Shown here one piece after another: positions 51,206 to 64,000 of a DNA stretch of 64,000 bases; position 1 is the stretch's first letter, and each line of letters starts with the position of its first letter. The position numbers and the translations under genes are program-made. Origin of the DNA: Candidatus Omnitrophota bacterium (lineage in GTDB: Bacteria; Omnitrophota; Gorgyraeia; Zapsychrales; Zapsychraceae); assembly GCA_018062515.1 (NCBI GenBank), contig JAGOSC010000006.1:342-64341 (forward strand). The letters are read 5' to 3'. The notes below the pieces were generated by a model. That model saw only the letters and a program-made list of their open reading frames with translations, was not told the origin of the DNA and did no database searches.

Positions 51206-51457
51206 ATGAAAAAGAAGTTTTTGTCAACATTCTTAAGCGTATTGGTCGGGGCGATGATTTTAACCCAGGCTGTATTTGCTGAAGACGTCTACGTGACGAA
51301 AAACGGTAAAAAGTACCACAAAAAGGAATCCCGCTTTATCAAAGGTAAGGAAGTTGAACAATTAACCATTGAAGAAGCTGAAGCGCGTGGTTATAAACCT
51401 AGCAGTGAGTTCCTTAAAGACGCAGACACGGAAGCTAAAGCAACCGAAAGCAAATAG
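51206..51457 (+). CDS. Small secreted lysine-rich protein
   Basis: Signal peptide MKKKFLSTFLSVLVGAMILTQAVFA. RBS AAGGAGG. Terminator-like hairpin follows (51471-51500). Confidence 0.45.
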   Translation: MKKKFLSTFLSVLVGAMILTQAVFAEDVYVTKNGKKYHKKESRFIKGKEVEQLTIEEAEARGYKPSSEFLKDADTEAKATESK

Positions 51458-51624
51458 TAACAGAGTATAAATAAGAGGGGACATGTGTCTCCTCTTATTT
51501 ATATACTACAGGTAGTGGTATCTGGACGAATTTTAGTATTTATCAGATTTATTTTTGACTTATTTTTGCATTATCGAAAAAAGTATACTATACTCCCACT
51601 AGACAATTTGATTTTATCGTTGTG

Positions 51625-51770
51625 AACGATAAAGGCAAACCCGGGGTAACCCGGCGACGCAAAGCTAAAGGGTCCTAGAATAGGATAGCCAGTTACCGAA
51701 ACAGAATGAAGAGACTTTCTTCAGTGAAGTTTCATGGCCTATTCCTATCTAAAAGGGAATAGGCTTTTTT
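51625..51770 (+). promoter_or_regulatory. Candidate c-di-GMP-I (GEMM) riboswitch with intrinsic-terminator expression platform
   Basis: Aptamer ..aaaGGCAAACC-CGGG-GUAA-CCCGG-CGACGCAAAGC-uaaaggGUCCUAgaaUAGGAUagccaGUUACCGAAAC. Contains the GEMM GCAAACC, GACGCAAAGC and GUUACCG blocks and a GNRA-capped P2-like hairpin. Terminator ggcctattcc-tatctaaaa-gggaatagg followed by T7 at 51736-51769, just upstream of the NHL gene. Confidence 0.65.
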
Positions 51771-51807
51771 TATGGAAAACAGTAAGGACAAAAAGGGGAA
51801 CAGAATC

Positions 51808-54138
51808 ATGAGAATACAAACCATCGCCATCAACCAACAGCTAATAAAGGGAGTAAGTATTTTGGCGCTTCTTTTATTTTGGGTGACAACCGTGCATGCT
51901 AAGGAATCGATTAAATTTATTAATGAGCTTAAAGCAGATATGAAAATGCCGGTAGATGTGGCCTTGGCTCCTAACAAAGATATTTATGTTTTGGATCAAA
52001 AAATCCCGCAAGTTTTTGTTTTTAATCCGGCTGGAAAAATAATGTTTAGTTTCGGCCGTTCCGGTTCTGGAATGGGTGAGTTAAGCAATCCGCAATCACT
52101 CGCTATATCAAGGAATGGGGATGTTGTTATCGCTGATACGGGCAATAAACGGGTACAGGTATTTAATGCCCGCGGAAATTTTATGTATGAATTGGGAAAT
52201 TCTGGAAGTGAACCCGGGCAGTTCTCTGAGCCCGCATTAGTCGCGACTGATGCTTACGGATATATCCTCGTGGCTGATACATCAAATAAGTCGATTTCAA
52301 AGTTTTCACCGAAAGGTGTGTTCTTCCAAAGTATTCCTTTGGAAGGAAGTCCGACCGATATGGTATTTGATATCCAGCAAAATTTATATATGTTTTATCC
52401 TGAAATGGGAAAAATTGTTAAATGGCCCATGGAAGGGAAAATGGAGAGTATCGAATTTGCTTGGGAAGGCCGAAATTATGTGGCTGATGCTGCCCGTATT
52501 TCTGTCGATATGAGAGGAGATATTTATCTTATTGACCAATTGAAAAACAGTGTCGTTAAAATTGATCAAAAAAGAAAAATTTTATTGTCGTTTGGTTCTA
52601 AAGGAACCGGCCGTGGCCAATTTGATCAACCATTGGGTATGGTGACCGATGATCAAGGTAACATTTATATTGCCGACACAAAAAATAGACGTGTACAGAT
52701 GATTGAAGTTTTAGGAAGTGAAAAAACGGCGCTGGTTCCCGTTGAGGGAAAAGCTCCGGTCGTCGATTACGCGCAGTCGATATCCGCTCAGAAATCCTTG
52801 TCCGATATAGAATATGATGAAAAATACGGTTTGTTTGCATTATCTGAAGTGAGCGGCCTTATCCTTCATCAAAGAAAAAACAGCTTGGGTATTTATGGAG
52901 ACCCGAACGAAAAGGTCGTTAAAATGCAAGCTCCGATGGCCATGCAGATATTAAATGACGGTAAAATGCTGGTTGCAGATACAGGAAATAATCGCCTTCA
53001 ATTCTTAAATGCCAATGGAAGTCATGATTATTTATTCGGTACAAAAGGCATGGATAATGGCCAATTCGATTCATTATCTGGGGTAGCGGTTAATCGCGAA
53101 GGACAAATTTATGTCGCAGATACTAAAAATAATCGCATACAAATTTTTAACAGCGACGGGATATACTTAAAGTCTTTTGGACAAAAAGGCGAAATGGATG
53201 GTAATAATAAGTTGCCCAGACTTGGTTATTTTAATAATCCGAAAACATTGGAATTTGACTCAAAAGGTTTACTTTATGTCCTAGATACAAAAAATAAAAG
53301 AATACAAGTTTTTGATCAAGAAGGAATTGCTTTGAAAGAAATCGGGACGGCCAGAGATACGGGAAAATTTATTGATCCCGTCGATTTGGCTATTGATGAA
53401 TGGGATAATTTATATGTGGCTGACCGTGGGAGTCATACGGTTAAAGTATTAAATAATCAGGGAAAACCGATTACAGAATTCGGTTCAGACGGAAAGGGCC
53501 CAAGTTATTTTCCTAAATTATCGTCCATTAGTGCTGCAAAAGGTAAAATATACATAGCCGATTATGATACCGATGAGATTAAGGTCTTTGATATTCATAT
53601 CAATGACAAGCTTATGGACACAAAGATGGTAATGAAGAATGAAGAAAAGGCGCCGGCTAAAGCGATGGTTTCCAAGGCAAATAATGCTGCGCCTAAAAAA
53701 AGTAAATTAATGATTTCAGCGAATACAGTTAGCGCTGATGAAATCGCTGTGGTAGATCAGATGGTTAAAAGCGAACAGCCTGTCGTAAGCGAGCAGCCAA
53801 ATGTTTTTCAAAGACCAAAAATTATTGAAAACAATGGAGTTAAGCATACATCAGATAGAGTTTATTTTACTCAAGTTTCTTATCCCCTTAAGACCGAAAA
53901 TGCCAACGAAAAAATAAAAGTCGAAATGGTTTATAAAATGACATTGCAATTAGCCATTGTCAACATTTCAACCAAATATGGGATGGATGTCAAAGCAGTT
54001 ACGCCTCATATTAAGGTTGAAAAAGAAGATATTCTCGAAGATGGCCGTTTAAGAATCACCGTCAGTGTACCTAAAGATTTGTCAAATATGAAACAGTCTA
54101 CCCAGGCTGATATGGATACTGAAATTAAGGAATTATAG
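51808..54138 (+). CDS. Secreted NHL-repeat protein (two six-bladed beta-propellers, ~11-12 NHL repeats) with ~190-aa C-terminal domain of unknown function
   Basis: Signal peptide ..LALLLFWVTTVHA. Recurring NHL pattern P..LA.d..G.iyVaD..N.riqvF...G. Start moved to ATG 51808 (RBS AAAGGGGAA), since the track start at 51772 abuts the terminator T-run. Confidence 0.7.
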   Translation: MRIQTIAINQQLIKGVSILALLLFWVTTVHAKESIKFINELKADMKMPVDVALAPNKDIYVLDQKIPQVFVFNPAGKIMFSFGRSGSGMGELSNPQSLAISRNGDVVIADTGNKRVQVFNARGNFMYELGNSGSEPGQFSEPALVATDAYGYILVADTSNKSISKFSPKGVFFQSIPLEGSPTDMVFDIQQNLYMFYPEMGKIVKWPMEGKMESIEFAWEGRNYVADAARISVDMRGDIYLIDQLKNSVVKIDQKRKILLSFGSKGTGRGQFDQPLGMVTDDQGNIYIADTKNRRVQMIEVLGSEKTALVPVEGKAPVVDYAQSISAQKSLSDIEYDEKYGLFALSEVSGLILHQRKNSLGIYGDPNEKVVKMQAPMAMQILNDGKMLVADTGNNRLQFLNANGSHDYLFGTKGMDNGQFDSLSGVAVNREGQIYVADTKNNRIQIFNSDGIYLKSFGQKGEMDGNNKLPRLGYFNNPKTLEFDSKGLLYVLDTKNKRIQVFDQEGIALKEIGTARDTGKFIDPVDLAIDEWDNLYVADRGSHTVKVLNNQGKPITEFGSDGKGPSYFPKLSSISAAKGKIYIADYDTDEIKVFDIHINDKLMDTKMVMKNEEKAPAKAMVSKANNAAPKKSKLMISANTVSADEIAVVDQMVKSEQPVVSEQPNVFQRPKIIENNGVKHTSDRVYFTQVSYPLKTENANEKIKVEMVYKMTLQLAIVNISTKYGMDVKAVTPHIKVEKEDILEDGRLRITVSVPKDLSNMKQSTQADMDTEIKEL

Positions 54139-54192: not shown

Positions 54193-54219
54193 GCAGCCCT
54201 ATAACGGGCTGCTTTTTTT
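54193..54219 (+). terminator. Intrinsic terminator after the NHL gene
   Basis: gcagccc-tataac-gggctgc followed by TTTTTTT. Confidence 0.8.
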
Positions 54220-54333
54220 GTTCTCCCCTGTCAAAGAAATCCTTTGACTTTGTAAATAAAATGTTGCATACTCTTACCTTGTAAGTAGTTAATGTATTGT
54301 ACAAATATTTTCATACTGTCGTGTGTTAAACTT

Positions 54334-55974
54334 ATGGATAATAAATCTCTAAAGTTAGGACAAATCCTCTTAGGTGAGGGTATACTAGACAAACAGCAAT
54401 TGCAGGACTTGCTGGATTCTCAAAAAACCGATCCCCGGCCACTCGGCGAGATTATTATTCAAAAGGGTTTAGTCGACGATAATCGTCTGACAGAAGTCCT
54501 GGCCAAGATGTTTCAAATTCCTTATGTCGATCTTCGGCAAACGAAGATTGATTCTACGCTTATCGGCCTTATTCCGACCGATTTATTGCAAGTCCACCGC
54601 GTTCTCCCCATAAAATTAGAAGATCAAAAATTAACCGTTGCCACAAATAATCCGCTGGACGTCAATGTTTTACAAGACCTTCAGATCAGAACCGGATATA
54701 CGATTATTCCTATCATGTCCAGTATCAAGGACATAGACCAGAATTTGCAAGAATATTTTGATTCCATCAATACCGGTGTAAAAATGTCCTCATCGAAAAA
54801 GGATGATAATGAGGCCCGGGTCATGCAATATATTGATGCTATTATCCGAAGAGCTATTCGAGAAAAGACTTCAGATATTCATTTTGAGCCATTGAAGGAA
54901 TCCATGAGAGTCCGTTTCAGGATTGATGGTGTTCTTTATGAAAAAGATACGATTGGAAAAGATTTACAAAGAAACTGTATTTCGAGAATTAAAATTATTT
55001 CCGGTATGGATTTGACAGAAACGAGACGCCCGCAAGATGGCCGCTGTTCGTTTACCGTCGGAATGGGACAATATGACCTGCGGGTATCTACTTTGCCGAA
55101 TATTAATGGTGAAAGTCTTGTCATGAGGATTTTAACCAAAAGTTTCATTAAACAATCTTTCTCTACTTTAGGGATGAGCCCAAGCATGATTAAAGATTTG
55201 GAGTCTTTAGTCGAAAAGCCATATGGACTTATTTTAGTCACCGGACCAACGGGGGCTGGCAAAACGACTACTCTATATGCTATGCTTGGTCAATTAAACG
55301 ACTCCGAAAGGAGCATTATTACGGTTGAAGATCCAGTTGAATATGAATTAGAGGGGATTTGCCAAACCCCGACGAATACGGCCATAGGATATACATTTGC
55401 TAATGCCATTCGGCACATTTTACGGCACGACCCGGATGTCATTATGATTGGAGAAATTAGAGATAGAGAAACAGCGGAAATTGCTATCCGTTCTGCCTTA
55501 ACGGGCCACTTAGTTCTATCTACCATGCACACCAACACCGCAGCCGGAGCCGTCACCCGATTATTGGAAATGGAAATTGAGCCTTTTTTGATCAGCAGTG
55601 CCTTAAATGGCGTTATTTCACAACGTTTGGTTCGGGGATTATGTACTTCCTGTAAGGAAATTTATACACCAGAGCCGGAAATTGTTAATAGAATTCGTCA
55701 ATATGTGCCACTTGAAGATGGTGCTAAGCTGGCTAGGCCGATTGGTTGCGACGCATGTTTAACGACTGGATTTAGAGGCCGATCGCCTATTTTTGAAATA
55801 TTGAAAGTTGATGAAACTATTCGGCATTTAATCATCAAATCAGCAGATGAATCGGTAATTTCGGAGACAGCCGTGAAGAATGGAATGAAGTTATTAGGGG
55901 TCGCTGGTTTAGAGAAAGTTGTTAATCAGTCCACAGAATTTAGTGAAACAATGCGCAACGTGTTTATCGATTAG
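54334..55974 (+). CDS. pilB: Type IV pilus assembly ATPase PilB (GspE family)
   Basis: GspE-N domain start MDNKSLKLGQILLGEGILDKQQL. Walker A GPTGAGKTT, Asp/His boxes, tetracysteine CTSC...CDAC. Track start at 54292 is probably too early. Confidence 0.8.
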   Translation: MDNKSLKLGQILLGEGILDKQQLQDLLDSQKTDPRPLGEIIIQKGLVDDNRLTEVLAKMFQIPYVDLRQTKIDSTLIGLIPTDLLQVHRVLPIKLEDQKLTVATNNPLDVNVLQDLQIRTGYTIIPIMSSIKDIDQNLQEYFDSINTGVKMSSSKKDDNEARVMQYIDAIIRRAIREKTSDIHFEPLKESMRVRFRIDGVLYEKDTIGKDLQRNCISRIKIISGMDLTETRRPQDGRCSFTVGMGQYDLRVSTLPNINGESLVMRILTKSFIKQSFSTLGMSPSMIKDLESLVEKPYGLILVTGPTGAGKTTTLYAMLGQLNDSERSIITVEDPVEYELEGICQTPTNTAIGYTFANAIRHILRHDPDVIMIGEIRDRETAEIAIRSALTGHLVLSTMHTNTAAGAVTRLLEMEIEPFLISSALNGVISQRLVRGLCTSCKEIYTPEPEIVNRIRQYVPLEDGAKLARPIGCDACLTTGFRGRSPIFEILKVDETIRHLIIKSADESVISETAVKNGMKLLGVAGLEKVVNQSTEFSETMRNVFID

Positions 55975-55992
55975 TTAAAGGATTAAGAATTA

Positions 55993-57204
55993 ATGCCTAC
56001 CTATGTTTATAAATTAAAAGATGAGTCCGGCAAAACATTATACGGTTTTACGGAAGCTGATAATAAAAATAACTTGAAAGAAAAAATGAGGAATTTCAAG
56101 TATTACTTTATTTCAGCAGAAGTTGTTGACCGCAAAAAGATTTTTGAATCAAAAGTGAGCATTGACACGCTTTTGGTATTTACACGCCGTCTCGGTTCAT
56201 TGATTGAATCAGGTATTCCATTTATAACGGCTATGAATATTCTTTGGCGGCAATCAGAAGATAAGACCATTCAGCTGGTGGTCTGCCATATGCGAAATCG
56301 TCTGGAAGAGGGAAAAAATATATCCATGTCCATGAGTGAATTTCCTAAAATGTTTAATCCTATGTATTTAGCGATGATCACTGTTGCCGAAAAAGCTGGC
56401 GGTTTGGTGGCCATTCTTAAACGATTGATTAGTTATTTAGAGTATCATAAGTTATTTATCACTAGAACCAAAAAAGCCATTTTATACCCGAGCATTGTTG
56501 CCGGTTTTGCTGTTTTGGTGGTTATCGTTATGTTTGTTGTTCTAGTTCCGCAGTTTGCAAAAGTTTTAGGTGGTTTAAGGGTGGAATTACCAGGGATAAC
56601 TAAACTCGTTATAGCCATTTCTAATCTAATGCGGTCACCGGTTTTTATTTTTTCCGTCATTGGAATATTAACACTTGGTACTATGATATTTAGGTATTTA
56701 ATGCGAGATCCCAAATTTGCAAAGAAAGTTGATTATTACCTCTTGAAAATTCCTTTTATTGGGGATATACTCTACTCATTGTCTTTGGGGAGGTTTGTTC
56801 GATCTTTAGCTATGTTGGTTGGGGCAGGCCTACCGATCTTTGAAAGTTTTGATATAGCTAAAACGACTACAGCAAATCGTTATATTGTAGAAGGGGTAAA
56901 TATTACTCAGCAAAGATTACAAGCCGGTAATTCTCTCTATGAATCCTTCAAAGAAGCGCGGATGTTTCCGGTGTTGTTCACGGAAATGATCGGCGTTGGA
57001 GAAACGAGTGGTTCAATTGTTAAGTCTTTTGACAGCTTAGCTGATCATTTTGATGAAGAAGTCGATTATAAACAAAACAAATTTTTTACCATGCTTGAAC
57101 CGGCATTAATGATTTTTGTCGGGGGCATAGTTATCTTTACGCTCTTAGCCATATATATGCCAATATTTTCGATTTGGGATGGCTTGATGAATTATAGAAA
57201 GTAA
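55993..57204 (+). CDS. pilC: Type IV pilus platform protein PilC (GspF family)
   Basis: Two GspF repeats, 3 TM; ..FTRRLGSLIESGIP.. / ..FVRSLAMLVGAGLP... Confidence 0.8.
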   Translation: MPTYVYKLKDESGKTLYGFTEADNKNNLKEKMRNFKYYFISAEVVDRKKIFESKVSIDTLLVFTRRLGSLIESGIPFITAMNILWRQSEDKTIQLVVCHMRNRLEEGKNISMSMSEFPKMFNPMYLAMITVAEKAGGLVAILKRLISYLEYHKLFITRTKKAILYPSIVAGFAVLVVIVMFVVLVPQFAKVLGGLRVELPGITKLVIAISNLMRSPVFIFSVIGILTLGTMIFRYLMRDPKFAKKVDYYLLKIPFIGDILYSLSLGRFVRSLAMLVGAGLPIFESFDIAKTTTANRYIVEGVNITQQRLQAGNSLYESFKEARMFPVLFTEMIGVGETSGSIVKSFDSLADHFDEEVDYKQNKFFTMLEPALMIFVGGIVIFTLLAIYMPIFSIWDGLMNYRK

Positions 57205-57240
57205 AGAAAAAGATACTGAGAGCAAAAAATAACATGGTGT

Positions 57241-57256
57241 TGGTATAAAAATTGCT
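57241..57256 (+). promoter_or_regulatory. Candidate sigma54 (-24/-12) promoter upstream of the pilin gene
   Basis: tGGtat-aaaaa-tTGCt: GG and GC are spaced as in TGGCAC-N5-TTGCW, ~165 nt upstream of the pilin ATG. Confidence 0.3.
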
Positions 57257-57421
57257 GATTATTAAATATTGTAAATGCGCAAAACGTTTCTAATACGAAG
57301 TTTAGGAGTAAAAGATAATTTAATAGTCATAATGAAATGTTAAAATAAATGTGCATTTTGTTGATATATGTACAATTTTTAAATCACAAACCACAAACAA
57401 CAAGTAAAGGGAGATACAAAA

Positions 57422-57805
57422 ATGAAGACAACAAACAAAAAAGGTTTCACTTTGATCGAAGTTCTAACCGTCATGGTTATTATTGGGATCATCCTAGCTT
57501 TGGTTCTACCTAACATTATCAAAGCTATTGAACAAGGTAATATTACGGAATACCAAAGTGATTTAAGATCAATCACCTCAGCAGCTTTTATGTGCTTTAC
57601 AGAAAAACGAACCTGGGCAGCGCCGTGTGATGATCCTGCTACACTACTAACTGAGGAATTTTTAACCTCTGTTCCAGTAAACCCATTATCAAGTGGTGGT
57701 GCATACCGATTAGAGGCTCAATCATCAGGTGCATTAATTGCATGTGTTCCAACACAGCCTGTATTAGCCAATGGTACTGCACTTAATCGATGCGTTCAAT
57801 ACTAA
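57422..57805 (+). CDS. pilA: Type IV pilin (prepilin with N-terminal cleavage/methylation domain)
   Basis: MKTTNKKG|FTLIEVLTVMVIIGIILALVLPN is a class III signal peptide. Two Cys near the C-terminus (D-region disulfide). Confidence 0.8.
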   Translation: MKTTNKKGFTLIEVLTVMVIIGIILALVLPNIIKAIEQGNITEYQSDLRSITSAAFMCFTEKRTWAAPCDDPATLLTEEFLTSVPVNPLSSGGAYRLEAQSSGALIACVPTQPVLANGTALNRCVQY

Positions 57806-57826
57806 TCTAGTTTAAAGAAATTCATT

Positions 57827-59323
57827 ATGAAACAATATCTTGGGGTAGACATATCGGATGATTTCATCCGGTATGTCTGCCTAGATATAAAAAATACGGA
57901 TTACATTATCACCAAATCAGGCAAGTCAAAGATTGATTTTGACTTATTGACTGCGGATGCTTTATGTAATGCTATTAAAGATATAGTGAGCCGAGAGGGG
58001 CTAAGACCCTCACGGATATTTGTGTCTTTATCCCGTAAGGACACCGTTATCCATCAATTAATGCTTCCCAAACTTACCTCAAGAGAGTTTGATGAAGTCC
58101 TTAAGATGGAAATAGAGAAAATCCCCACTTTTCACAAACAATCCTTTGATTTTATATACAAAAAATACCAAATATCTGTTGATAAAGTTAAGGTTCTTTT
58201 GGCGGCTGTACGTTTAGATATTCTGACGAGTCTATTAAAAGAAGTTAATAACACAAAAATTCCTTTCCATCAGGTTGAAATTGCGCCGCTCAACTTTAGA
58301 GAATTACCCAACATTATCGATCCAACGAGTGAGAATGATGCCTTCCTTATTATGTCAGATCAGCAAACCTACTTAGGTATTTTCATGAAGGGGGAGTATA
58401 GGCTGATTTATAAATTGGCGTATGGTTTAAAACAGGTTCAAAATATTACCTCTCCGGAGCAAGTCAAAACAATCGTAACTGATTGGGGAACTCAAATTAA
58501 ACGAGTTTTAAAGTCTTTCCTCATGGACAATCGGAATGTGGTGATTAGAAAAATATGGTTGGTTTGGGACAATGAGATTATCCCGAATTTTGAGCAATAT
58601 ATCGGTAACTTTGATATTCCGGTTGAAGTATTGGATGCGCGTAAAATCAAGCAAATTCACACATCTGAAAATAATCCGCTTAATCCTATTTATATGTTAG
58701 CCTTAGCGCCTATTGTCTACGACGTTCATCAACTGAAACTTCAATTTCCTCTTCAACATTTCTTTGGACGTTTTCAAGTTAAGACTTATGCTCTTAAGTG
58801 CGCTGTTGTCACCGCCTCGATTTTAGGTATTATTGGATTTTTATTTGCGGTGAGTAATATCTGGATTAATGTTAGGAAAAATTATTTTGTTACTCAAAAT
58901 AATGCCGCAGAAAGCAAAATTACACAGTTGAAACAAGAAGCATCCACTCTTTATCAAGAATATGCTGCTTATCAAGAAGTCCGCGAACAATTTTTGGCTC
59001 AAGCGACGTTTGTTCAGGAAATCAATCGTATATCATGGGCCCAAGTCTTTTCCATCGTGGCAAATGAGCTTCCGCAGGATTTAGCTTTAACCTCATTTAA
59101 GTTTGTTGAGAGCGGAGGAGCTACTATTAATGGCGAGGCGCTTAACATGGAATCTATTTCTGAAATGCTACGTCGTATTGAAGAATCAGCCATTCTCGAT
59201 CAAGGTCGATTTGATTTCTTAAGAGAAAAGAAAGTTCAAGAACAAAAATTGTTTAATTTTGGCATACTAGCTGCGCTAAAGGCAGAGGAAGAGAAACCGG
59301 TCGATGACAAAACAAAAAATTAA
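57827..59323 (+). CDS. pilM: PilM-PilN fusion protein (actin-like ATPase domain + single-TM coiled-coil PilN)
   Basis: N-terminal ~300 aa PilM/FtsA-like, then TM CAVVTASILGIIGFLFAV and a coiled-coil PilN-like region. Confidence 0.65.
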   Translation: MKQYLGVDISDDFIRYVCLDIKNTDYIITKSGKSKIDFDLLTADALCNAIKDIVSREGLRPSRIFVSLSRKDTVIHQLMLPKLTSREFDEVLKMEIEKIPTFHKQSFDFIYKKYQISVDKVKVLLAAVRLDILTSLLKEVNNTKIPFHQVEIAPLNFRELPNIIDPTSENDAFLIMSDQQTYLGIFMKGEYRLIYKLAYGLKQVQNITSPEQVKTIVTDWGTQIKRVLKSFLMDNRNVVIRKIWLVWDNEIIPNFEQYIGNFDIPVEVLDARKIKQIHTSENNPLNPIYMLALAPIVYDVHQLKLQFPLQHFFGRFQVKTYALKCAVVTASILGIIGFLFAVSNIWINVRKNYFVTQNNAAESKITQLKQEASTLYQEYAAYQEVREQFLAQATFVQEINRISWAQVFSIVANELPQDLALTSFKFVESGGATINGEALNMESISEMLRRIEESAILDQGRFDFLREKKVQEQKLFNFGILAALKAEEEKPVDDKTKN

Positions 59324-59909
59324 ATATTTGTTCATCCTCGGTTCCGTGCTGTTTGTTGGCGTCATGATTTCCATTAGTGTACAAAATGTCCGCGACTATT
59401 TTCAGGCAAAAGTACAGTTTGATGAAAAACAAAAAGAATTGAAGGATGTTTTGGATGAGATTAACGTTATAAAAGCGAAAATTGCTTTATATCAGGAAGA
59501 AAAGAAAGAATTTGAGGCATACCTCTTTAAAGAACAAGATATTCCAGCCTTACTCGACGATATTTCTAAAATTGCCAAAGAATCTTTAGTTAATATTCTC
59601 GATATGAAAACGCAGGGATTTAGTATGGTCCAATCGGCGAGAAGGAGTCAAGGAAATAATACCCAGAATGTTTCTCAAAAAGAGCAACTTAAAGAAACGC
59701 TGACATTGGCAGCTATGCCAATCAATATGAGAATAGAAGGGGAATTTACCGCGTTATTAACTTTTTTTAATTCGATTGAAGATTTTAAACAGTTGGTTAC
59801 GGTAAGCCAGGTAGAAATCACATCAGACAATCAATATCCCATTCTTAAATGTTCATATATATTAAAAATTTACAGTTTGAAAACATTAGCCGAGATCGAA
59901 ACACGATGA
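59304..59909 (+). CDS. pilO: Type IV pilus inner-membrane component PilO-like
   Basis: N-terminal TM (LFILGSVLFVGVMI), coiled coil, C-terminal ferredoxin-like PilO region; overlaps both neighbours. Confidence 0.55.
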   Translation: MTKQKIKYLFILGSVLFVGVMISISVQNVRDYFQAKVQFDEKQKELKDVLDEINVIKAKIALYQEEKKEFEAYLFKEQDIPALLDDISKIAKESLVNILDMKTQGFSMVQSARRSQGNNTQNVSQKEQLKETLTLAAMPINMRIEGEFTALLTFFNSIEDFKQLVTVSQVEITSDNQYPILKCSYILKIYSLKTLAEIETR

Positions 59910-60331
59910 AACATTTAATTTATTTAATTATAATTTTGGTTTGTTTTTCAGGATGTTCATCGAAGAAAAAAGAGGTTGTCGTCAGTGAACCAGTTGTCGA
60001 AAAAGTAGAAGACTTACAATTAGCTAAGATTATTCTAAAACCTGAAAAGCCTGAAATTAGCGTCACGAGAGACCCTTTCAAACCGTTAATAGAACTTAAT
60101 AAAGGTCCGGCGGCGCTTGTTCTCAACATAGGTGAACAATTAGAACGGTATAAGTTTATGGGTGTTACGAAATCAGATGATGAATACGTCGCTTTCATAA
60201 AGGATGGAGCAAAGAGGGGAACATATCGAAAAAACGATATGTTAAATGAGTTTAAAATAGTTGACATAGGACCGCAAGAGGTATTATTATTAAACGGCGA
60301 AAAAACTTTCACATTAAAAAGAGGTAAATGA
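59906..60331 (+). CDS. pilP: PilP-like lipoprotein
   Basis: Lipobox MKHLIYLIIILVCFSGC; small beta-domain protein between pilO and the secretin. Start revised from 59849. Confidence 0.55.
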   Translation: MKHLIYLIIILVCFSGCSSKKKEVVVSEPVVEKVEDLQLAKIILKPEKPEISVTRDPFKPLIELNKGPAALVLNIGEQLERYKFMGVTKSDDEYVAFIKDGAKRGTYRKNDMLNEFKIVDIGPQEVLLLNGEKTFTLKRGK

Positions 60332-62382
60332 AAATGAGAATGAAACAATATGTTTTGTTGGGCGTGAGTACGTGTTTATTACTACATGTGACCGCATCGG
60401 TTACGATGGCTTATCAAACAGGAGAAAATGGAAAACTTCAAAGAGGCAGTGAAGAAATTGTAGACGATTATGTTTCTTCAAAGCTTGAGTCAGACATGAC
60501 TGCCTATTACGAAAATATTGAACTTTCCAGCGATGATTTGACAGAACAACAAAACGATCATATTTTCACTTCTATAGAAAATGAAAAAATAAAACCGCAA
60601 ACCGGTTGGTCAGCTGATGCTGGCGGATCCGATGAAAATGTTGAAGCCATTTCCAATGTTGAAAAGGCTGATAACAATGAAACGGTTCAGGAAGTTACCG
60701 CAGAAGAAAACAAAACCGCGAAATCTGAAAAGAAAGGTTTTTTTAGCAAGTTAGCTGGAGTGTTTAAGAGATCAGATAATAAAACTGAGATAGCTAAAGC
60801 TGAACCAGTCGTCGTTGAAGATGTCGATGGTAATAAAGGTTATTTTGTCCCGGCCGAAACTAATATGAAGGAAGAAGCTTATGTGCAAGTTGCGCAAGTT
60901 TCGGAGCCTGTAGAAGTCGAGGAAGAAGCTATAGAAGCTCTAGATGAAGACGTACAGGAAGAAGCAGCCGAAGAACAAACAAAAGGATCATCTTGGACTA
61001 AAGTTAAAGATAAATTGACTGGTAGTTCCTCAACCCCTCAAACTGAAGAAGAATATTGGGATGTGCCAGTTAAGGAACAAAGTCTCAGTGATATCAGTGC
61101 GAATTTAGATGTGGACGCTGCGTTTAAAGAAGCTCAATTAATTACATTACCGGAAGCTCCTGCTGTTAAAGTTGAAGCAGAACAACCTCAGTTCGAAGCC
61201 CTTCTTCCATCAACGGAAGAAATGGTCCGTAACGCTATTCCTCAAGAAAATAGAGACAAAAGAATTGATCTGGATTTTGATGACACCAGTCTTTCTGATG
61301 TCCTTTCTATTATAGCTGATGCTGGAAATATGAATATCGTGTTAGATCCTAGCTTGAAAGCCAATACGCTGGATCTTCACTTAAAACAAGTTAGATTAGA
61401 AGATGCGCTTTTATTAGTTTTTAGTTCGTATAATCTTGGCTTCAAGCAAGTCGGAGGTGCGATTTACGTTACTGATAAAGAAAAATTATTGGAAGAGCAT
61501 AAAGTATCACGCATTGTTAAAATTAAAAATATAGCCGTTCAAGATGCTAAGGATTTAGTTGATTCATTAACAGACAAAGTAAATTTGAGTGAAGAGTTAA
61601 ATAGTTTAGTCATCATGGGAAATCCTGACGATGTCGCTAAAGTACAGAAACTGATTCACGATATCGACAAACCGCAATTGCAGGTTTTATTAGAATCTAA
61701 GATCATCGAAATGAACAAAGATGCGTTAAAAGATCTGGGTGTAGATTGGTCCGATCAAGTAGTCATGGGATATCAGGAAAGTGGAAGACCGGTATCCTTT
61801 AGTGATCCGGAAGATTCTGATTCACCGCTATATCATTTTTCTCAAATCCAGCGAAATCCGCTTCAATTTGACACCACTATCAATATGTTAGAAACTCAAA
61901 ATAAGGCCAAAATTCTTTCCGCTCCGAGAGTCACAACACTTAATGGAAAAGAAGCAGAAATTTTCGTCGGGGATGAAGTTCCATACACAATTACAAATAT
62001 TTCCGGTGGTGTCGTAACGAATGATGTCCGCTTCGTTTCACCTGGTATTCGATTAAAAATCACGCCATCGATTATTGAAGATGGTTTCGTGGTCATGAAA
62101 GTTGAACCGGAAGTAAGTTTTATCGTTGCTTTTAGAGGGCCGAATAGTGAATTCCCTCAAGTTCGGACACGAGAAGCAACCGCCTACGTTCGGGTCAATG
62201 ATAAGCATCCGTTCGTCATTGGTGGTATACTTAACCAAGAAGATAAGCAAGTCTTAAACAGAGTTCCGTTTATTGGTAGAGTTCCATTGATTGGAAATCT
62301 TTTCAGCTATTCATTGGATACAGCCGTTGACACAGATTTGATTATTACTGTTATTCCTACGATTGTTCGCGGACAGGAATAA
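60328..62382 (+). CDS. pilQ: Type IV pilus secretin PilQ (GspD family) with long acidic N-terminal region
   Basis: Signal peptide; N0/N1-like ..TSLSDVLSIIADAGNMNIVLDP..; C-terminal secretin domain ..VPFIGRVPLIGNLFS..DLIITVIPTIV... Confidence 0.8.
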   Translation: MKMRMKQYVLLGVSTCLLLHVTASVTMAYQTGENGKLQRGSEEIVDDYVSSKLESDMTAYYENIELSSDDLTEQQNDHIFTSIENEKIKPQTGWSADAGGSDENVEAISNVEKADNNETVQEVTAEENKTAKSEKKGFFSKLAGVFKRSDNKTEIAKAEPVVVEDVDGNKGYFVPAETNMKEEAYVQVAQVSEPVEVEEEAIEALDEDVQEEAAEEQTKGSSWTKVKDKLTGSSSTPQTEEEYWDVPVKEQSLSDISANLDVDAAFKEAQLITLPEAPAVKVEAEQPQFEALLPSTEEMVRNAIPQENRDKRIDLDFDDTSLSDVLSIIADAGNMNIVLDPSLKANTLDLHLKQVRLEDALLLVFSSYNLGFKQVGGAIYVTDKEKLLEEHKVSRIVKIKNIAVQDAKDLVDSLTDKVNLSEELNSLVIMGNPDDVAKVQKLIHDIDKPQLQVLLESKIIEMNKDALKDLGVDWSDQVVMGYQESGRPVSFSDPEDSDSPLYHFSQIQRNPLQFDTTINMLETQNKAKILSAPRVTTLNGKEAEIFVGDEVPYTITNISGGVVTNDVRFVSPGIRLKITPSIIEDGFVVMKVEPEVSFIVAFRGPNSEFPQVRTREATAYVRVNDKHPFVIGGILNQEDKQVLNRVPFIGRVPLIGNLFSYSLDTAVDTDLIITVIPTIVRGQE

Positions 62383-62468
62383 TAAAATCTCCATCATCGC
62401 TTAAAAGATTCACTCCTACTTTGGGAGTGAATCTTTTAACTTGAATATACTTAAATAGGGAGTAAGCT

Positions 62469-64000
62469 ATGTCTATGAAGAGGCTGAATAAAAAAGGCTT
62501 TACACTTATTGAGGTGCTGATTGGAGCCATTGTTATTTCCATCGTCAGCGTCGCAGCCTGGACAGGATTTTCCAGTTTACAAATCGCTGAAGAACAAACT
62601 CGTAATCGAACAACCGCCACTAATTTACTGCAGCTAAGTCAAGAAGAAGTTCGGAACTTCGCCCAGAACACAGCTGATTTTGACCGATTAGAGACATGCC
62701 ATTTCCCCCCTGCAACTCCTGATTGTAATTTGTCCGATCCGACATCTACAACACCATTTTCCGGATTTACCCGTACCATGACAGCCGCTCAGGAAAACAG
62801 CAGCCCCGAATTAAAAAGAGTTCATACAGTGGTTCAGTGGACCGAGAGAGGTTCCGCACAACAAATGGAGTCCGTGATCCTGCTTTCCAGACCAGGAACT
62901 TCGATTCCCGGAAATTTAATTGGAATAGTCAGTTCTACTGCGGCACCAGGTACTCCGCTTAACCTAACAACGGTTAAACTAACCTCAACTACGTCTACGG
63001 CCACATACACCACTAATTCTTCAGGTTCACTTGGTTCAAAGAACGCTAATTATGATTTTATGGATCCCGTTACAGGGAAATATTTAGTACCGGCTGGGGC
63101 ATACACTTTGACGGCCAATCGTACGGGTTATCAACCGTATACGTATGGATCACCGATCAACATTCCTTCATCCGGGGAGATTCGTAAGGATTTCGAGTTA
63201 ACCCCCGTTCCTGCGGATGCGGTTATACACGGCACTATCACCGGAGGCTTGACTACCTTTAATTATGGGCAAATATGGCTATATGAAAACGGCGCACCTG
63301 CGGTGGGTGTCATCCCTAATCCTCCGGTGGTGTCTAATTCAACAAGTTATTCTTTTACAATTCCATTTAGTGCCCCGGGAACTACTAGAAGTTTTACAAT
63401 AGCAACTATAGGTTCATGGAAACAAGGATATGTTTATGATCTTCGGCTGGGGACTTCATGTTCGCTGGAGTATAGTGCGAACGGTTATTCGACAGCTTGG
63501 GTTTCTGCTGGCGGAGGGGTCAACTGCGATCCCGTTACGCATCCTTACCTTGGCAATAGTGGATCGGATCGGATTATGGTAGGCCCTGGAGTTAATAGAA
63601 CAGAGGACTTGCCGCTTGTTCCAATTCCTGAGGTTACTTTGACTGGAACGGTGAAAGACAATCTTGGAGATCCCATTATTGGTGCTACGGTATTGGTTAT
63701 GTGGCCAGCCAGTGGTGGAGTCGAACCGCCTAATTGGTATAGATATTGGCGATATAGAAAGAATGGTGCGTTTGCGTGCAATCCTTCGTTTGCGCCGTGT
63801 GATCCTGATAAATTTAATACCAAGACAGTTGCAGGTGGACGCTTTAGTATTAACGTTCCAGCCGTGCAGGGAGTGGCGCCAAACATCACCCCAGCCCAAA
63901 ATTATTTGCAAGTATCAATCGGCGCAAATCTTCCTTCAACACTTTGTTGCGGCCAAACCGTGCCTACACCAGTCGGTCAAAATTTTAATCTCCCATGGCC
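62469..64000 (+). CDS. Very large prepilin-like protein (class III signal peptide + at least two CarboxypepD_reg-like domains); continues past window end
   Basis: MSMKRLNKKG|FTLIEVLIGAIVISIVSVAAW. RBS GGGAG. Hand translation stays open to 64000 (>510 aa). Transthyretin-like motifs (..GKYLVPAGAYTLTANRTGYQPY.., ..LTGTVKDNLGDPIIGATVLV..AGGRFSINVP). Confidence 0.65.
   Translation, partial: MSMKRLNKKGFTLIEVLIGAIVISIVSVAAWTGFSSLQIAEEQTRNRTTATNLLQLSQEEVRNFAQNTADFDRLETCHFPPATPDCNLSDPTSTTPFSGFTRTMTAAQENSSPELKRVHTVVQWTERGSAQQMESVILLSRPGTSIPGNLIGIVSSTAAPGTPLNLTTVKLTSTTSTATYTTNSSGSLGSKNANYDFMDPVTGKYLVPAGAYTLTANRTGYQPYTYGSPINIPSSGEIRKDFELTPVPADAVIHGTITGGLTTFNYGQIWLYENGAPAVGVIPNPPVVSNSTSYSFTIPFSAPGTTRSFTIATIGSWKQGYVYDLRLGTSCSLEYSANGYSTAWVSAGGGVNCDPVTHPYLGNSGSDRIMVGPGVNRTEDLPLVPIPEVTLTGTVKDNLGDPIIGATVLVMWPASGGVEPPNWYRYWRYRKNGAFACNPSFAPCDPDKFNTKTVAGGRFSINVPAVQGVAPNITPAQNYLQVSIGANLPSTLCCGQTVPTPVGQNFNLPW

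What the first reader, a model, noticed from the sequence alone, without database searches (positions are those of the whole stretch)
54244..64000. Type IVa pilus cluster with PilM-PilN fusion, no pilD, and a giant prepilin-like protein carrying CarboxypepD_reg-like domains
pilB-pilC-pilA-pilMN-pilO-pilP-pilQ are contiguous and tightly overlapping. PilM and PilN are a single 498-aa polypeptide. No prepilin peptidase is present in the window. Immediately downstream sits a >510-aa protein (open at the window edge) with a canonical class III signal peptide followed by two or more transthyretin-like CarboxypepD_reg-type domains. This resembles a pilus-tip adhesin, or a non-canonical giant pilin, more than a minor pilin. 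Together with the c-di-GMP-regulated NHL propeller next door, this looks like a surface-adhesion module.
Basis: partly seen in the sequence, partly recalled or inferred. Interest (0 to 1): 0.55.

Follow-up and report, generated by a model that had tools for sequence, protein, structure and literature searches.

The report
Omnitrophota type IV pilus with modular pilin
This is the type IV pilus gene cassette typical of the uncultivated phylum Omnitrophota; its unusually large "pilin" is a real but already catalogued kind of protein, a pilin anchor carrying a stalk of small beta-sandwich domains that probably sits at the pilus tip and sticks to surfaces or host cells.

Summary
Window 54292-64000 (+) encodes an extension ATPase (MshEN + T2SSE), platform protein, 127-aa pilin, a 498-aa PilM-PilN fusion, PilO, a 141-aa lipoprotein in the PilP position, a secretin, and a prepilin starting at 62469 (not 62470), still open after 510 codons. 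No prepilin peptidase is in the window. A PilT-family ATPase lies at 16864-18312. The contig is a Candidatus Omnitrophica MAG and ends 422 bp beyond the window.

The large protein is a modular minor pilin. Homologues are 711-733 aa. AlphaFold (pLDDT 87.6) gives a pilin module plus five transthyretin/CnaB-like beta-sandwiches. About 90 clusters (50% identity) keep this architecture end to end. It is always followed by a small prepilin and a ~400-430-aa prepilin-like protein lacking Glu+5, which suggests a tip complex.

The N_methyl + CarboxypepD_reg architecture is among the 15 commonest modular-pilin types (Raynaud 2021). T4aP clusters were already reported across Omnitrophota (Seymour 2023). 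PilM+PilN fusion is the norm in T2SS (GspL), although here the fold matches PilM better.

The NHL gene does have a c-di-GMP-I riboswitch (51624-51700). However, it is a separate, terminator-bounded transcription unit, and distant relatives have a PilZ gene there instead. Verdict: real and coherent, a new member of a known kind, modest interest.

The parts
51624..51700 (+). c-di-GMP-I riboswitch aptamer in the leader of the NHL gene (outside the finding's coordinates; context)
   Evidence: Rfam RF01051, 65.2 bits against a gathering score of 35, full-length model match. Conserved in L004 with a compensatory change in P2.
51736..51771 (+). Intrinsic terminator (11-bp stem plus T7) forming the riboswitch expression platform, ending at the NHL start codon
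   Evidence: Conserved in L004. Constrained folding shows an alternative antiterminator that uses the aptamer's P2 3' strand.
51772..54138 (+). Secreted NHL-repeat beta-propeller protein (788 aa); neighbouring gene and separate transcription unit
   Evidence: Pfam NHL 167.5 bits. Signal-peptide-like N-terminus. 66% identical to the L001 orthologue.
54193..54219 (.). Bidirectional intrinsic terminator separating the NHL gene from the pilus operon
   Evidence: GCAGCCC-TATAAC-GGGCTGC followed by T7 and preceded by A6. Conserved in L004.
54244..54272 (+). Promoter-like site (TTGACT-17-CATACT) for the pilus operon
   Evidence: Consensus scan. A similar TTGACA...CATACT site sits at the same place in L004. 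Consensus match only.
54292..55974 (+). Extension ATPase (PilB type) with an N-terminal MshEN domain and tandem c-di-GMP-binding motifs; likely true start 54334
   Evidence: T2SSE 418 bits, MshEN 68.6 bits, NF053729 c-di-GMP motif 46.3 bits against cut-off 38. Motifs read directly. Best full-length PDB matches are PilF and PilB.
55993..57204 (+). Platform protein (PilC/GspF)
   Evidence: T2SSF 161.7 bits with 2 stretches. GspF 292 bits and PilC 257 bits, both below their equivalog cut-offs.
57422..57805 (+). Major pilin candidate (127-aa prepilin; KKG|FTLIE; four conserved Cys)
   Evidence: N_methyl 34 bits. Orthologue alignment. PDB profile hits cover only the N-terminal helix: geopilin, GspG, PilA.
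57827..59323 (+). PilM-PilN fusion (498 aa): actin-like domain, TM/coiled-coil helix, ferredoxin-like domain
   Evidence: Pfam PilM_2 and PilN. AF2 pLDDT 82.4. Foldseek top hits are PilM 5eoy (7e-18), 3jc8 and 2ych; GspL is at rank 31. Family of 35 or more proteins of about 500 aa.
59304..59909 (+). PilO
   Evidence: Pfam PilO 42.4 bits against cut-off 22.
59906..60331 (+). PilP-position lipoprotein (141 aa from ATG 59906; the mechanical ORF starts at 59849)
   Evidence: Lipobox FSG|C conserved in 5 orthologues. No Pfam or PDB sequence hit. Weak GspC_delta hit at E 0.027.
60328..62382 (+). Secretin (PilQ type) with a long acidic N-terminal region, STN/N0, N1 and secretin domains; no AMIN domain
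   Evidence: Secretin 138 bits, STN 29 bits, Secretin_N 27.7 bits. PilQ 194 bits against GspD 168 bits.
62401..62439 (+). 18-bp terminator-type hairpin between the secretin and large-prepilin genes
   Evidence: MFE -26.3 kcal/mol, z -5.4. A hairpin sits at the same place in L001, L004, L007 and L005 with different stem sequences.
62469..64000 (+). Large modular minor pilin, truncated (510 of about 750 codons): class III signal peptide, pilin module, then the first three of five beta-sandwich domains
   Evidence: N_methyl 29.3 bits and CarboxypepD_reg 36.4 bits. Homologues are 711-733 aa. AF2 model of P0003 has pLDDT 87.6. Foldseek matches CnaB/TTR-type stalks.
16864..18312 (+). PilT/PilU-family ATPase fused to a receiver domain; candidate retraction motor, 36 kb upstream
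   Evidence: TIGR01420 389.2 bits against cut-off 319.1. Response_reg 55 bits at res 365-474.

Best explanation
The region is the conserved type IVa-like pilus cassette of Omnitrophota.

How it is inferred to work:
- A PilB-type ATPase, whose MshEN domain is predicted to bind c-di-GMP, drives a PilC platform to polymerise a short major pilin.
- The alignment subcomplex is a covalent PilM-PilN fusion plus PilO and a PilP-like lipoprotein. It connects to a PilQ-type secretin.
- The large protein at the window edge is a modular minor pilin. It has a cleavable class III signal peptide and a canonical pilin module (about 145 aa). In full-length homologues this is followed by a rod of five transthyretin/CnaB-like beta-sandwich domains.
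- It is encoded in a separate or attenuated unit with two partners: a small canonical minor pilin and a protein of about 400-430 aa that lacks Glu+5, which is the GspK/PilX-type cap.
- Together these three are inferred to form the priming complex that ends up at the pilus tip. The beta-sandwich stalk would then be displayed as the adhesive or spacing element, taking the place of a PilY1-type adhesin.
- Prepilin processing needs a peptidase encoded elsewhere in the genome.

Shown here: gene content, domain content, predicted folds, family size, conserved gene order, and the terminator and riboswitch elements.

Inferred: tip location, adhesion, c-di-GMP activation of the ATPase, retraction by the PilT-REC protein, and the direction of the riboswitch.
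For: - Domain assignments.
- ATPase matches T4aP PilF/PilB over its full length. MshEN motifs are present.
- PilMN fold matches PilM at E 7e-18, against 1e-8 for GspL.
- A PilT-family ATPase is on the same contig.
- Large prepilin: N_methyl in 20/22 family members and CarboxypepD_reg in 22/22. G/A/S at -1 and Glu+5 are conserved, along with four Cys pairs.
- The AF2 model shows helix 11-63, sheet 100-140, then five beta-sandwiches, at pLDDT 87.6.
- Foldseek hits are CnaB/TTR stalks of Gram-positive adhesins, E down to 1e-12. A PDB profile hit falls on the carboxypeptidase D TTR domain.
- About 90 end-to-end family representatives.
- The block secretin / big prepilin / small prepilin / 400-430-aa protein is kept in L001, L004, L005 (rearranged), L007, L009 and L010.
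- The third gene lacks Glu+5 in 6/6 loci, and the second has it in 7/7.
- No PilY1-like gene is present in any of these loci.
- Literature: modular pilins are predicted to be tip-exposed, and N_methyl+PF13620 is a frequent architecture (PMC8179133). T4aP are near-universal in Omnitrophota and are proposed to mediate host attachment (PMC10066038).
Against: - There is no experimental evidence for piliation, tip location or binding.
- Several components score as well or better against T2SS models. Platform: GspF 292 against PilC 257 bits. Pilin N-terminus: GspG is the best hit. ATPase catalytic core: GspE 361 against PilF C-terminal fragment 350 bits. The T4aP label is therefore not clean.
- The first Arg of the MshEN motif is Lys here.
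- Conservation is even across the five domains (40-50%), with no hypervariable or obviously ligand-binding tip domain.
- Foldseek TM-scores are low (0.1-0.2 on the query), so similarity is at the level of repeated domains only.
- The two partner genes are not in the window, because the contig ends inside the large gene.
- The PilP assignment is unproven.
Confidence: 0.72

Rival explanations
1. The cassette is a type II secretion system or a T2SS-like pseudopilus machine. The fused PilMN is a GspL, the short pilin is a GspG, and the three downstream prepilins are GspJ/I/K-like pseudopilins. The neighbouring secreted NHL propeller is a substrate.
For: - PilM+PilN fusion is the T2SS state, as in PulL/GspL (PMC10191384).
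- The platform scores higher with GspF (292) than with PilC models (257 and 243).
- The pilin N-terminus hits GspG best.
- Over the catalytic region alone, GspE scores slightly above PilF.
- No PilY1 is present, and T2SS lack one.
- A GspK-like cap lacking Glu+5 is present.
- The NHL protein has a signal peptide and is a conserved neighbour in three loci.
Against: - The N-terminal domain of the fusion matches PilM far better than GspL (7e-18 against 1e-8).
- Pfam finds PilN and PilO, not T2SSL or T2SSM.
- The secretin scores PilQ above GspD (194 against 168).
- The GspC position is held by a small lipoprotein without a PDZ domain.
- A PilT-family ATPase is on the contig, whereas T2SS arose with loss of PilT.
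- NHL is a separate transcription unit and is replaced by PilZ in distant loci.
- Published TXSScan typing calls these systems T4aP.
Confidence: 0.15
2. The large prepilin is not a tip adhesin. It is a structural spacer or priming subunit, whose beta-sandwich rod only sets geometry or helps open the secretin gate. Adhesion would then be carried by another protein, for example the Glu+5-less protein of about 400-430 aa or an unlinked factor.
For: - Conservation is even across all five domains, with no variable tip.
- CnaB/TTR domains act as stalks rather than binding domains in the best structural matches.
- The architecture is strictly fixed across about 90 clusters, which suits a structural role.
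- The Glu+5-less partner would sit above it in the filament.
Against: - PF13620-type domains are described as having a carbohydrate-binding-like fold, and in modular pilins they are predicted to bind carbohydrates (PMC8179133).
- The second domain (residues 250-381) matches no Pfam family and carries an invariant Cys pair, so it could be a binding domain.
- The protein diverges faster than the machinery (43% against 62-71% identity), as surface-exposed ligand-binding proteins often do.
Confidence: 0.2
3. The NHL propeller and the pilus form one c-di-GMP-controlled adhesion module. In this reading NHL is a pilus-associated adhesin, analogous to the beta-propeller of PilY1.
For: - PilY1's carrier domain is a beta-propeller (PMC8179133).
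- NHL is adjacent in the window, L001, L004 and L007.
- Both units have c-di-GMP-sensing elements.
Against: - Strong terminators lie on both sides of the NHL gene, and the pil genes have their own promoter-like site.
- The genomes that share NHL adjacency are collinear for many unrelated flanking genes too, so the adjacency may just be inherited synteny.
- NHL is absent from the cassette's neighbourhood in L009 and L010, where PilZ sits upstream.
- The riboswitch layout suggests NHL is switched off at high c-di-GMP, the opposite of what is expected for MshEN-activated extension.
Confidence: 0.12

Closest known systems
Modular type IV pilins (Raynaud et al. 2021, PNAS; PMC8179133), specifically the N_methyl (IPR012902) + PF13620 CarboxypepD_reg architecture; characterised examples are S. 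sanguinis PilB (vWA) and PilC (lectin), ETEC CofB and Thermus ComZ
   Same: A class III signal peptide and a small pilin module are followed by extra, non-pilin domains. The protein is predicted to be tip-exposed. PF13620 is explicitly listed among the 15 most frequent added modules.
   Different: Five tandem beta-sandwich domains in a fixed order (about 570 added residues), rather than one functional module. The family is conserved end to end in about 90 clusters and always sits next to the same two partner genes. No member has been studied. The ligand is unknown.
T4aP machinery (PilB, PilC, PilM, PilN, PilO, PilP, PilQ, PilT) as in Myxococcus, Pseudomonas and Thermus, and as typed by TXSScan in Omnitrophota (Seymour et al. 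2023, PMC10066038)
   Same: The same component set in one cassette. The PilM fold, PilN and PilO domains, PilQ-type secretin and MshEN-type PilB are present, and a PilT-family ATPase is in the genome.
   Different: PilM and PilN are one polypeptide. The secretin has no AMIN domains. There is no PilY1. Three rather than four or five minor pilins are in the cassette. pilD is not linked. PilT carries a receiver domain.
T2SS GspL, GspM, GspC and the GspI-J-K tip complex
   Same: The cytoplasmic actin-like domain is fused through one TM helix to a periplasmic ferredoxin-like domain, which equals GspL's topology. The cap subunit lacks Glu+5, like GspK. The major pilin is short and GspG-like.
   Different: The fold is closer to PilM than to GspL. 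Pfam T2SSL and T2SSM models do not hit. A lipoprotein replaces GspC. PilT is present. One minor pilin carries a 570-residue extension that would not suit a periplasmic pseudopilus.
CnaB/transthyretin-like stalk domains of Gram-positive sortase pili and MSCRAMMs (SpaC, Cna B-repeats, GBS52, PitA; B. anthracis TIE)
   Same: Tandem prealbumin-like beta-sandwiches form an elongated rod (Foldseek E 1e-12 to 1e-5).
   Different: The anchoring and assembly chemistry is unrelated (class III signal peptide and non-covalent pilin packing, against sortase-linked polymers). There is no evidence for isopeptide bonds. Sequence identity is about 10%.
MshE/PilB MshEN c-di-GMP receptors and c-di-GMP-I (GEMM-I) riboswitches
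   Same: Tandem 24-residue MshEN motifs lie at the ATPase N-terminus. A full-length GEMM-I aptamer with a terminator expression platform precedes the NHL gene.
   Different: The first motif residue is Lys, not Arg. The riboswitch controls the neighbouring NHL gene, not the pilus genes. It scores borderline as the GGC variant in the relative L004.

Membership tests
Type IV pilin / prepilin (large protein, 62469-) | Class III signal peptide: short basic leader, Gly (or Ala/Ser) at -1, hydrophobic +1, Glu at +5, about 20 hydrophobic residues | tested here: met
   The sequence reads MSMKRLNKKG|FTLIEVLIGAIVISIVSVAAW. N_methyl scores 29.3 bits against cut-off 21.2, and TIGR02532 scores 24.7 against 16.3. 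The feature is conserved in all full-length family members.
Type IV pilin / prepilin (large protein) | Pilin fold: long N-terminal alpha1 helix packed on a small antiparallel beta-sheet | tested here: met
   The AF2 model of homologue P0003 has helix 11-63 and strands 100-108, 115-126 and 129-140, with pLDDT of 60-86 in this part. This is a prediction, not a solved structure.
Type IV pilin / prepilin (large protein) | Cleavage and N-methylation by a prepilin peptidase, and incorporation into filaments | not testable with these tools
   No Peptidase_A24 is in the window. The rest of the genome was not available.
Modular pilin (sensu Raynaud et al. 2021) | [quoted passage not shown] | tested here: met
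   N_methyl + PF13620 (+ PF13715) are detected in 20-22 of 22 members. The definition and the listing of PF13620 come from PMC8179133.
T4aP machinery | PilB-type extension ATPase, PilC platform, PilM, PilN, PilO and PilQ secretin encoded together | tested here: met
   Pfam and NCBIfam hits. All hits to equivalog models fall below their curated cut-offs, so the assignments are at family level, not orthologue level.
T4aP machinery | PilT-family retraction ATPase in the genome | tested here: met
   TIGR01420 scores 389.2 bits against cut-off 319.1 at 16864-18312. A functional link to this cassette was not shown.
T4aP machinery | PilP lipoprotein with a C-terminal HR beta-domain linking PilNO to the secretin | tested here: inconclusive
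   The position, size and lipobox fit. There is no Pfam PilP hit and no PDB sequence hit. The only hit is GspC_delta at E 0.027.
T4aP machinery | Phylogenetic placement of the ATPase, platform and secretin within the T4aP clade rather than T2SS or MSH | not tested
   Only score comparisons were made, and they are mixed. Full-length ATPase favours PilB, while its catalytic core is about equal to GspE. The platform slightly favours GspF. The secretin favours PilQ.
T2SS GspL | Cytoplasmic GspL-type actin-like domain (lacking subdomain 2B) that binds GspE N1E; matches to Pfam T2SSL/GspL_C | tested here: not met
   No T2SSL or GspL_C hit. The Foldseek top ten hits are all PilM, and GspL first appears at rank 31. 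The topology (fusion through one TM helix) is nevertheless the same as GspL's.
MshEN c-di-GMP receptor domain | Tandem RLGxx(L/V/I)(L/V/I)xxG(L/V/I)(L/V/I)xxxxLxxxLxxQ motifs (motif recalled from Wang et al. 2016, own knowledge) | tested here: inconclusive
   NF053729 scores 46.3 bits against cut-off 38. Motif 1 is KLGQILLGEGILDKQQLQDLLDSQ, with Lys in place of Arg. Motif 2 is PLGEIIIQKGLVDDNRLTEVLAKM, with Met in place of Gln. Binding was not tested.
c-di-GMP-I riboswitch (RF01051) | Score above the gathering threshold over the full aptamer, with P1/P2 helices supported | tested here: met
   65.2 bits against 35, covering model positions 1-87. A compensatory CCUA/UAGG to CCUU/AAGG change is seen in L004. 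Caveat: the GGC-variant model scores 57-62 bits on the same sites.

The most novel reading that the evidence does not exclude
Omnitrophota may have replaced the PilY1/minor-pilin tip of T4aP with a phylum-specific three-protein tip. It would consist of a five-domain modular pilin, a small pilin and a Glu+5-less cap, built on a machine that combines T4aP features (PilM fold, PilP-like lipoprotein, PilT) with T2SS features (fused PilM-PilN, GspG-like pilin, GspK-like cap).

If so, the cassette would be a living intermediate relevant to how T2SS arose from T4aP. The modular pilin would be the host-attachment organelle of these ultra-small, possibly parasitic cells.

A further possibility is reciprocal c-di-GMP control, with pilus extension ON through MshEN and the NHL surface protein OFF through the riboswitch.
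Probability: 0.3. Interest if true: 0.55.

Novelty: new member of a known kind. Interest (0 to 1): 0.33.

Why it matters
Omnitrophota are uncultivated, mostly ultra-small bacteria suspected of depending on hosts. Their pili are the leading candidate for host attachment (PMC10066038).

This work picks out a conserved, well-modelled, fixed-architecture modular pilin and its two partner genes as the probable tip complex. That gives a concrete target for three kinds of experiment: heterologous expression, glycan or cell-binding assays, and cryo-ET of enrichment cultures.

The covalent PilM-PilN fusion with a PilM-type fold is a useful data point for the T4aP-to-T2SS transition.

None of this changes current concepts. 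It extends known categories into a poorly studied phylum.

Tried and rejected
- My first frame for the large gene was off by one, giving 21 stops. I corrected the start to 62469.
- The single-sequence homologue search found only 3 relatives. The family appeared only after the profile search and the exhaustive search.
- The metagenome scan with the PilMN profile found nothing. The species-representative genome scan found only one locus. Both are limited by their exact peptide patterns, so they say nothing about rarity.
- The PDB profile search with the PilP-like lipoprotein gave only noise.
- No sigma-54 promoter consensus (TGGCAC-N5-TTGC) is present in the window.
- The literature search for T4aP PilM-PilN fusions was uninformative: 'MshI' matched unrelated words and none of the exact phrases appeared.
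- Source names of distant family members did not resolve their taxonomy.
- I first thought a simple GAAUAGG heptamer was the antiterminator. That exact pairing is not conserved in L004. Constrained folding instead gave a longer pairing between the aptamer's 3' part and the terminator's 5' arm in both loci.
- I considered NHL as a PilY1 analogue and rejected it as the best reading, because it is transcriptionally separate and its adjacency is lineage-specific.

Full report
**Source and scope.** The window is nearly all of a 64,422-bp contig of a Candidatus Omnitrophica MAG; the last gene has NCBI locus tag KBD53_02030 and is annotated 'partial'. The gene at the window edge is therefore cut by the end of the assembly as well as by the window. 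It cannot be completed from this contig.

**Check of the observation.** ORF listing and Pfam/NCBIfam scans confirm these genes on the + strand:
- ATPase 54292-55974: T2SSE 418 bits, MshEN 68.6 bits.
- Platform protein 55993-57204: T2SSF 161.7 bits.
- 127-aa prepilin 57422-57805: N_methyl 34 bits.
- One 498-aa ORF 57827-59323, with PilM_2 at its N-terminus and PilN at its C-terminus.
- PilO 59304-59909.
- A 160-codon ORF 59849-60331 with no family hit.
- Secretin 60328-62382.
- An ORF from ATG 62469 that is still open at 64000 after 510 codons, with N_methyl 29.3 bits and CarboxypepD_reg 36.4 bits, both above Pfam's cut-offs.

The large protein's N-terminus, MSMKRLNKKG|FTLIEVLIG, is a textbook class III signal peptide.

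Four corrections apply:
- The start of the large gene is 62469, not 62470.
- Only PilMN/PilO/lipoprotein/secretin overlap. A 217-nt gap precedes the pilin gene, and an 86-nt gap precedes the large gene.
- The ATPase probably starts at Met15 (54334), where its orthologue begins.
- The 'PilP' ORF almost certainly starts at ATG 59906. That gives a 141-aa lipoprotein (MKHLIYLIIILVCFSG|C) whose lipobox is conserved in five orthologues.

**pilD and pilT.** I screened every ORF of at least 100 aa for predicted transmembrane segments and scanned all polytopic candidates. They are complex I/Mrp subunits, transhydrogenase, SulP, ABC permeases and Lgt. None is a Peptidase_A24, so 'no pilD in the window' holds. 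This is unremarkable for 64 kb of a genome. A tblastn search with the ATPase found one paralogue at 16864-18312. It is a PilT/PilU-family ATPase (TIGR01420, 389 bits against cut-off 319) with a C-terminal receiver domain. A candidate retraction motor is therefore on the same contig.

**The large prepilin.** A single-sequence search found only itself and two 717-aa relatives at 43-44% identity. A profile of these found 21 proteins of 711-733 aa, down to 30% identity, and all named ones are from Omnitrophica. An exhaustive HMM search of 1.84 billion cluster representatives found 144 hits below 1e-30. About 90 of them are single-stretch, end-to-end matches of roughly 670-800 aa. Below those, the hits are giant multi-repeat proteins that share only the repeated domain.

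Every full-length member keeps G/A/S at -1, a hydrophobic +1 and Glu+5. Four Cys pairs are conserved. N_methyl is detected in 20/22 members and CarboxypepD_reg in 22/22. The window's 510 residues align collinearly with residues 1-470 of the homologues, with no frameshift.

AlphaFold2 on the 22-sequence alignment gives a confident model of homologue P0003 (mean pLDDT 87.6). It has a 53-residue alpha1 helix (11-63) and a small sheet (100-140), which together form a pilin module. Five beta-sandwich domains follow, at about 148-246, 250-381, 384-503, 507-606 and 609-717.

Foldseek against the PDB returns tandem CnaB/prealbumin-type arrays: the B. anthracis TIE protein (1e-12), SpaC, Cna B-repeats, GBS52, PitA and SpaA. 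TM-scores are low, as expected when only repeated domains match and inter-domain angles differ. A sequence profile also hits the transthyretin-like domain of carboxypeptidase D (E 2e-4).

**Genomic context of the family.** The same block is present in all these loci:
- L001 and L002, a 302-kb JGI contig.
- L004, an Omnitrophota MAG.
- L007.
- L009 and L010, which are distant.

The block is ATPase(MshEN), platform, pilin, PilMN, PilO, small lipoprotein, secretin, large prepilin, a 160-190-aa prepilin, and a 403-428-aa protein. In L005, whose large prepilin is only 30% identical, the ATPase and platform genes have moved to the far side. The large prepilin and its two partners still follow the secretin there.

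The second partner has a canonical G|FTLIE signal in 7/7 loci. The third has a prepilin-like N-terminus but no Glu at +5 in 6/6 loci (G|YILLS, G|YALLI, G|VALLG and similar). It also gives a weak PilX_N hit at E 0.03. From established knowledge of T2SS and T4aP, the subunit that caps the filament (GspK/PilX) is the one that lacks Glu+5. None of these loci has a PilY1-like gene.

A strong terminator-type hairpin lies between the secretin and large-prepilin genes in all five loci examined (window 62401-62439, -26.3 kcal/mol, z -5.4). The stem sequences differ between loci. The three prepilin genes thus look like a separate or attenuated unit, which fits low-abundance minor pilins.

The large prepilin is 43% identical between the window and L001. 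The machinery proteins are 62-71% identical.

**The PilM-PilN fusion.** The fusion is a family of at least 35 proteins of about 500 aa, and all named ones are from Omnitrophica. The AF2 model (pLDDT 82.4) shows an actin-like domain (1-300), a long helix (310-412) containing the TM segment, and a ferredoxin-like domain (419-484).

Foldseek ranks P. aeruginosa, M. xanthus and T. thermophilus PilM first (E 7e-18 to 2.5e-15, target TM up to 0.64). FtsA comes next. The GspL cytoplasmic domain appears only at rank 31 (1e-8). [quoted passage not shown] The fusion's topology is therefore the T2SS norm, but this protein is PilM-like in fold and has Pfam PilN rather than GspL signatures.

**T4aP or T2SS?** The evidence is mixed, and I state that plainly.

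For T4aP:
- The ATPase matches PilF/PilB over its full length (442 and about 400 bits), against GspE at about 360 bits over the catalytic part only.
- The fusion has a PilM fold.
- PilN and PilO domains are present.
- The secretin scores PilQ above GspD (194 against 168).
- There is a PilP-like lipoprotein rather than a GspC with a PDZ domain.
- PilT is on the contig.
- Published TXSScan typing finds T4aP in nearly all Omnitrophota (PMC10066038).

For T2SS:
- PilM and PilN are fused.
- The platform scores GspF above PilC (292 against 257).
- The pilin's N-terminus resembles GspG.
- Over the catalytic core alone, GspE (361) is about equal to PilF fragments (350).
- There is no PilY1.

I rate T4aP-like at about 0.75.

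**c-di-GMP and the NHL neighbour.** Rfam finds a full-length c-di-GMP-I aptamer at 51624-51700 (65.2 bits against 35). An 11-bp terminator with a T7 run follows and ends at the NHL start codon.

The whole leader is 88% identical to that of L004, well above the conservation of the flanking coding sequence. It includes a compensatory change in P2. With the terminator's 3' arm blocked or not yet made, both leaders fold into an antiterminator that uses the aptamer's P2 3' strand. That is the layout of an OFF switch. This is an inference, and I give it about 0.55 confidence.

A strong bidirectional terminator (54193-54219) follows the NHL gene and is conserved in L004. A promoter-like site (54244-54272) precedes the pil genes. 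NHL is therefore its own transcription unit.

The loci that share the NHL neighbour also share unrelated flanking genes (RR, RNase T, ALAD), so the adjacency may be inherited synteny. In L009 and L010 a PilZ-domain gene occupies that position instead, and no riboswitch is present there.

The pilus ATPase has the MshEN c-di-GMP motif pair (NF053729, 46.3 bits against 38). Lys replaces the first Arg.

The link between the pilus and c-di-GMP is thus real and recurrent (MshEN always, PilZ in some lineages). The 'NHL + pilus adhesion module' is not supported as a functional unit.

**Comparison with what is known.** Raynaud et al. 2021 defined modular pilins and found more than 1,200 of them in 264 architectures. 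They explicitly list PF13620 ('carbohydrate-binding-like fold') among the 15 most frequent added modules, and they argue that such pilins are tip-exposed (PMC8179133). Seymour et al. 2023 reported T4aP clusters in nearly all Omnitrophota and proposed host attachment. The cluster type, the fusion topology and the pilin architecture class are each already known.

What is new:
- A specific Omnitrophota family with a fixed five-domain architecture has been delineated.
- It has an invariable partnership with a small prepilin and a Glu+5-less cap-like protein behind a conserved hairpin.
- The fused PilMN is PilM-like rather than GspL-like.

**Verdict.** The finding is a real, coherent and well-conserved system. 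It is a new member of known kinds rather than a new kind. Interest is 0.33.

The most novel reading that is not excluded has two parts. One is a phylum-specific tip complex that replaces PilY1. The other is a T4aP/T2SS-intermediate machine with reciprocal c-di-GMP control. I give this reading about 0.3 probability, and it would merit about 0.55 interest if true.

Noticed in passing
window 16864-18312 (+): A PilT/PilU-family ATPase (TIGR01420, 389 bits) carries a C-terminal response-regulator receiver domain (res 365-474). Phosphorylation might therefore control pilus retraction directly.
   Followed up: partly
window 51206-51457 (+); L004 3130-3381: A conserved 83-aa protein with a signal peptide and no Pfam hit (KNGKKYHKK..SRFIKGKE motif) has its own terminator at 51475-51496. 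It lies between the ALAD gene and the riboswitch promoter.
   Followed up: no
window 51624-51701; L004 3689-3765: The same aptamer scores as canonical c-di-GMP-I in the window (65.2 bits) but best as the c-di-GMP-I-GGC variant in L004 (62.4 bits, gathering score 59). The variant model also reaches 57.4 bits in the window. The ligand class is therefore not completely certain.
   Followed up: partly
window 51698-51735 (+): A conserved extra hairpin (GAAAC...GUUUC) sits between the aptamer and the terminator and is enclosed by the predicted antiterminator. Its role in the switch is unexplained.
   Followed up: no
window 60328-61230 (secretin residues 1-300); orthologues in L001, L004, L005, L007, L009, L010: The secretin's N-terminal region is an acidic low-complexity segment of very variable length (orthologues total 512-996 aa). 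No AMIN domain is detected in the window or L001 secretins (Pfam scans), and none is on record for the orthologues.
   Followed up: no
L001 13886-15321; L007 14004-15355: In close relatives the cassette is followed by a PAS + GerE (LuxR-type) regulator and a single-domain response regulator. These are candidate dedicated regulators, and they lie beyond the end of the window's contig.
   Followed up: no
L009 1781-2131; L010 871-1227: In distant relatives a small PilZ-domain protein sits immediately upstream of the MshEN ATPase, in the place the NHL gene occupies here. This would be a second c-di-GMP receptor attached to the same cassette.
   Followed up: no
window 53700-54138 (NHL protein residues ~640-788): After two NHL propeller regions and a low-complexity linker, the NHL protein ends in a C-terminal region of about 100-150 residues with no family hit. 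It is well conserved in L001; the alignment is 66% identical over residues 372-788.
   Followed up: no
window 63660-63800 (large prepilin residues ~400-445): Relative to the 717-aa homologues, the window's protein has two insertions in the third beta-sandwich domain (EPPNWYRY and CNPSFAPCDPDKF). The second adds an extra Cys pair.
   Followed up: no
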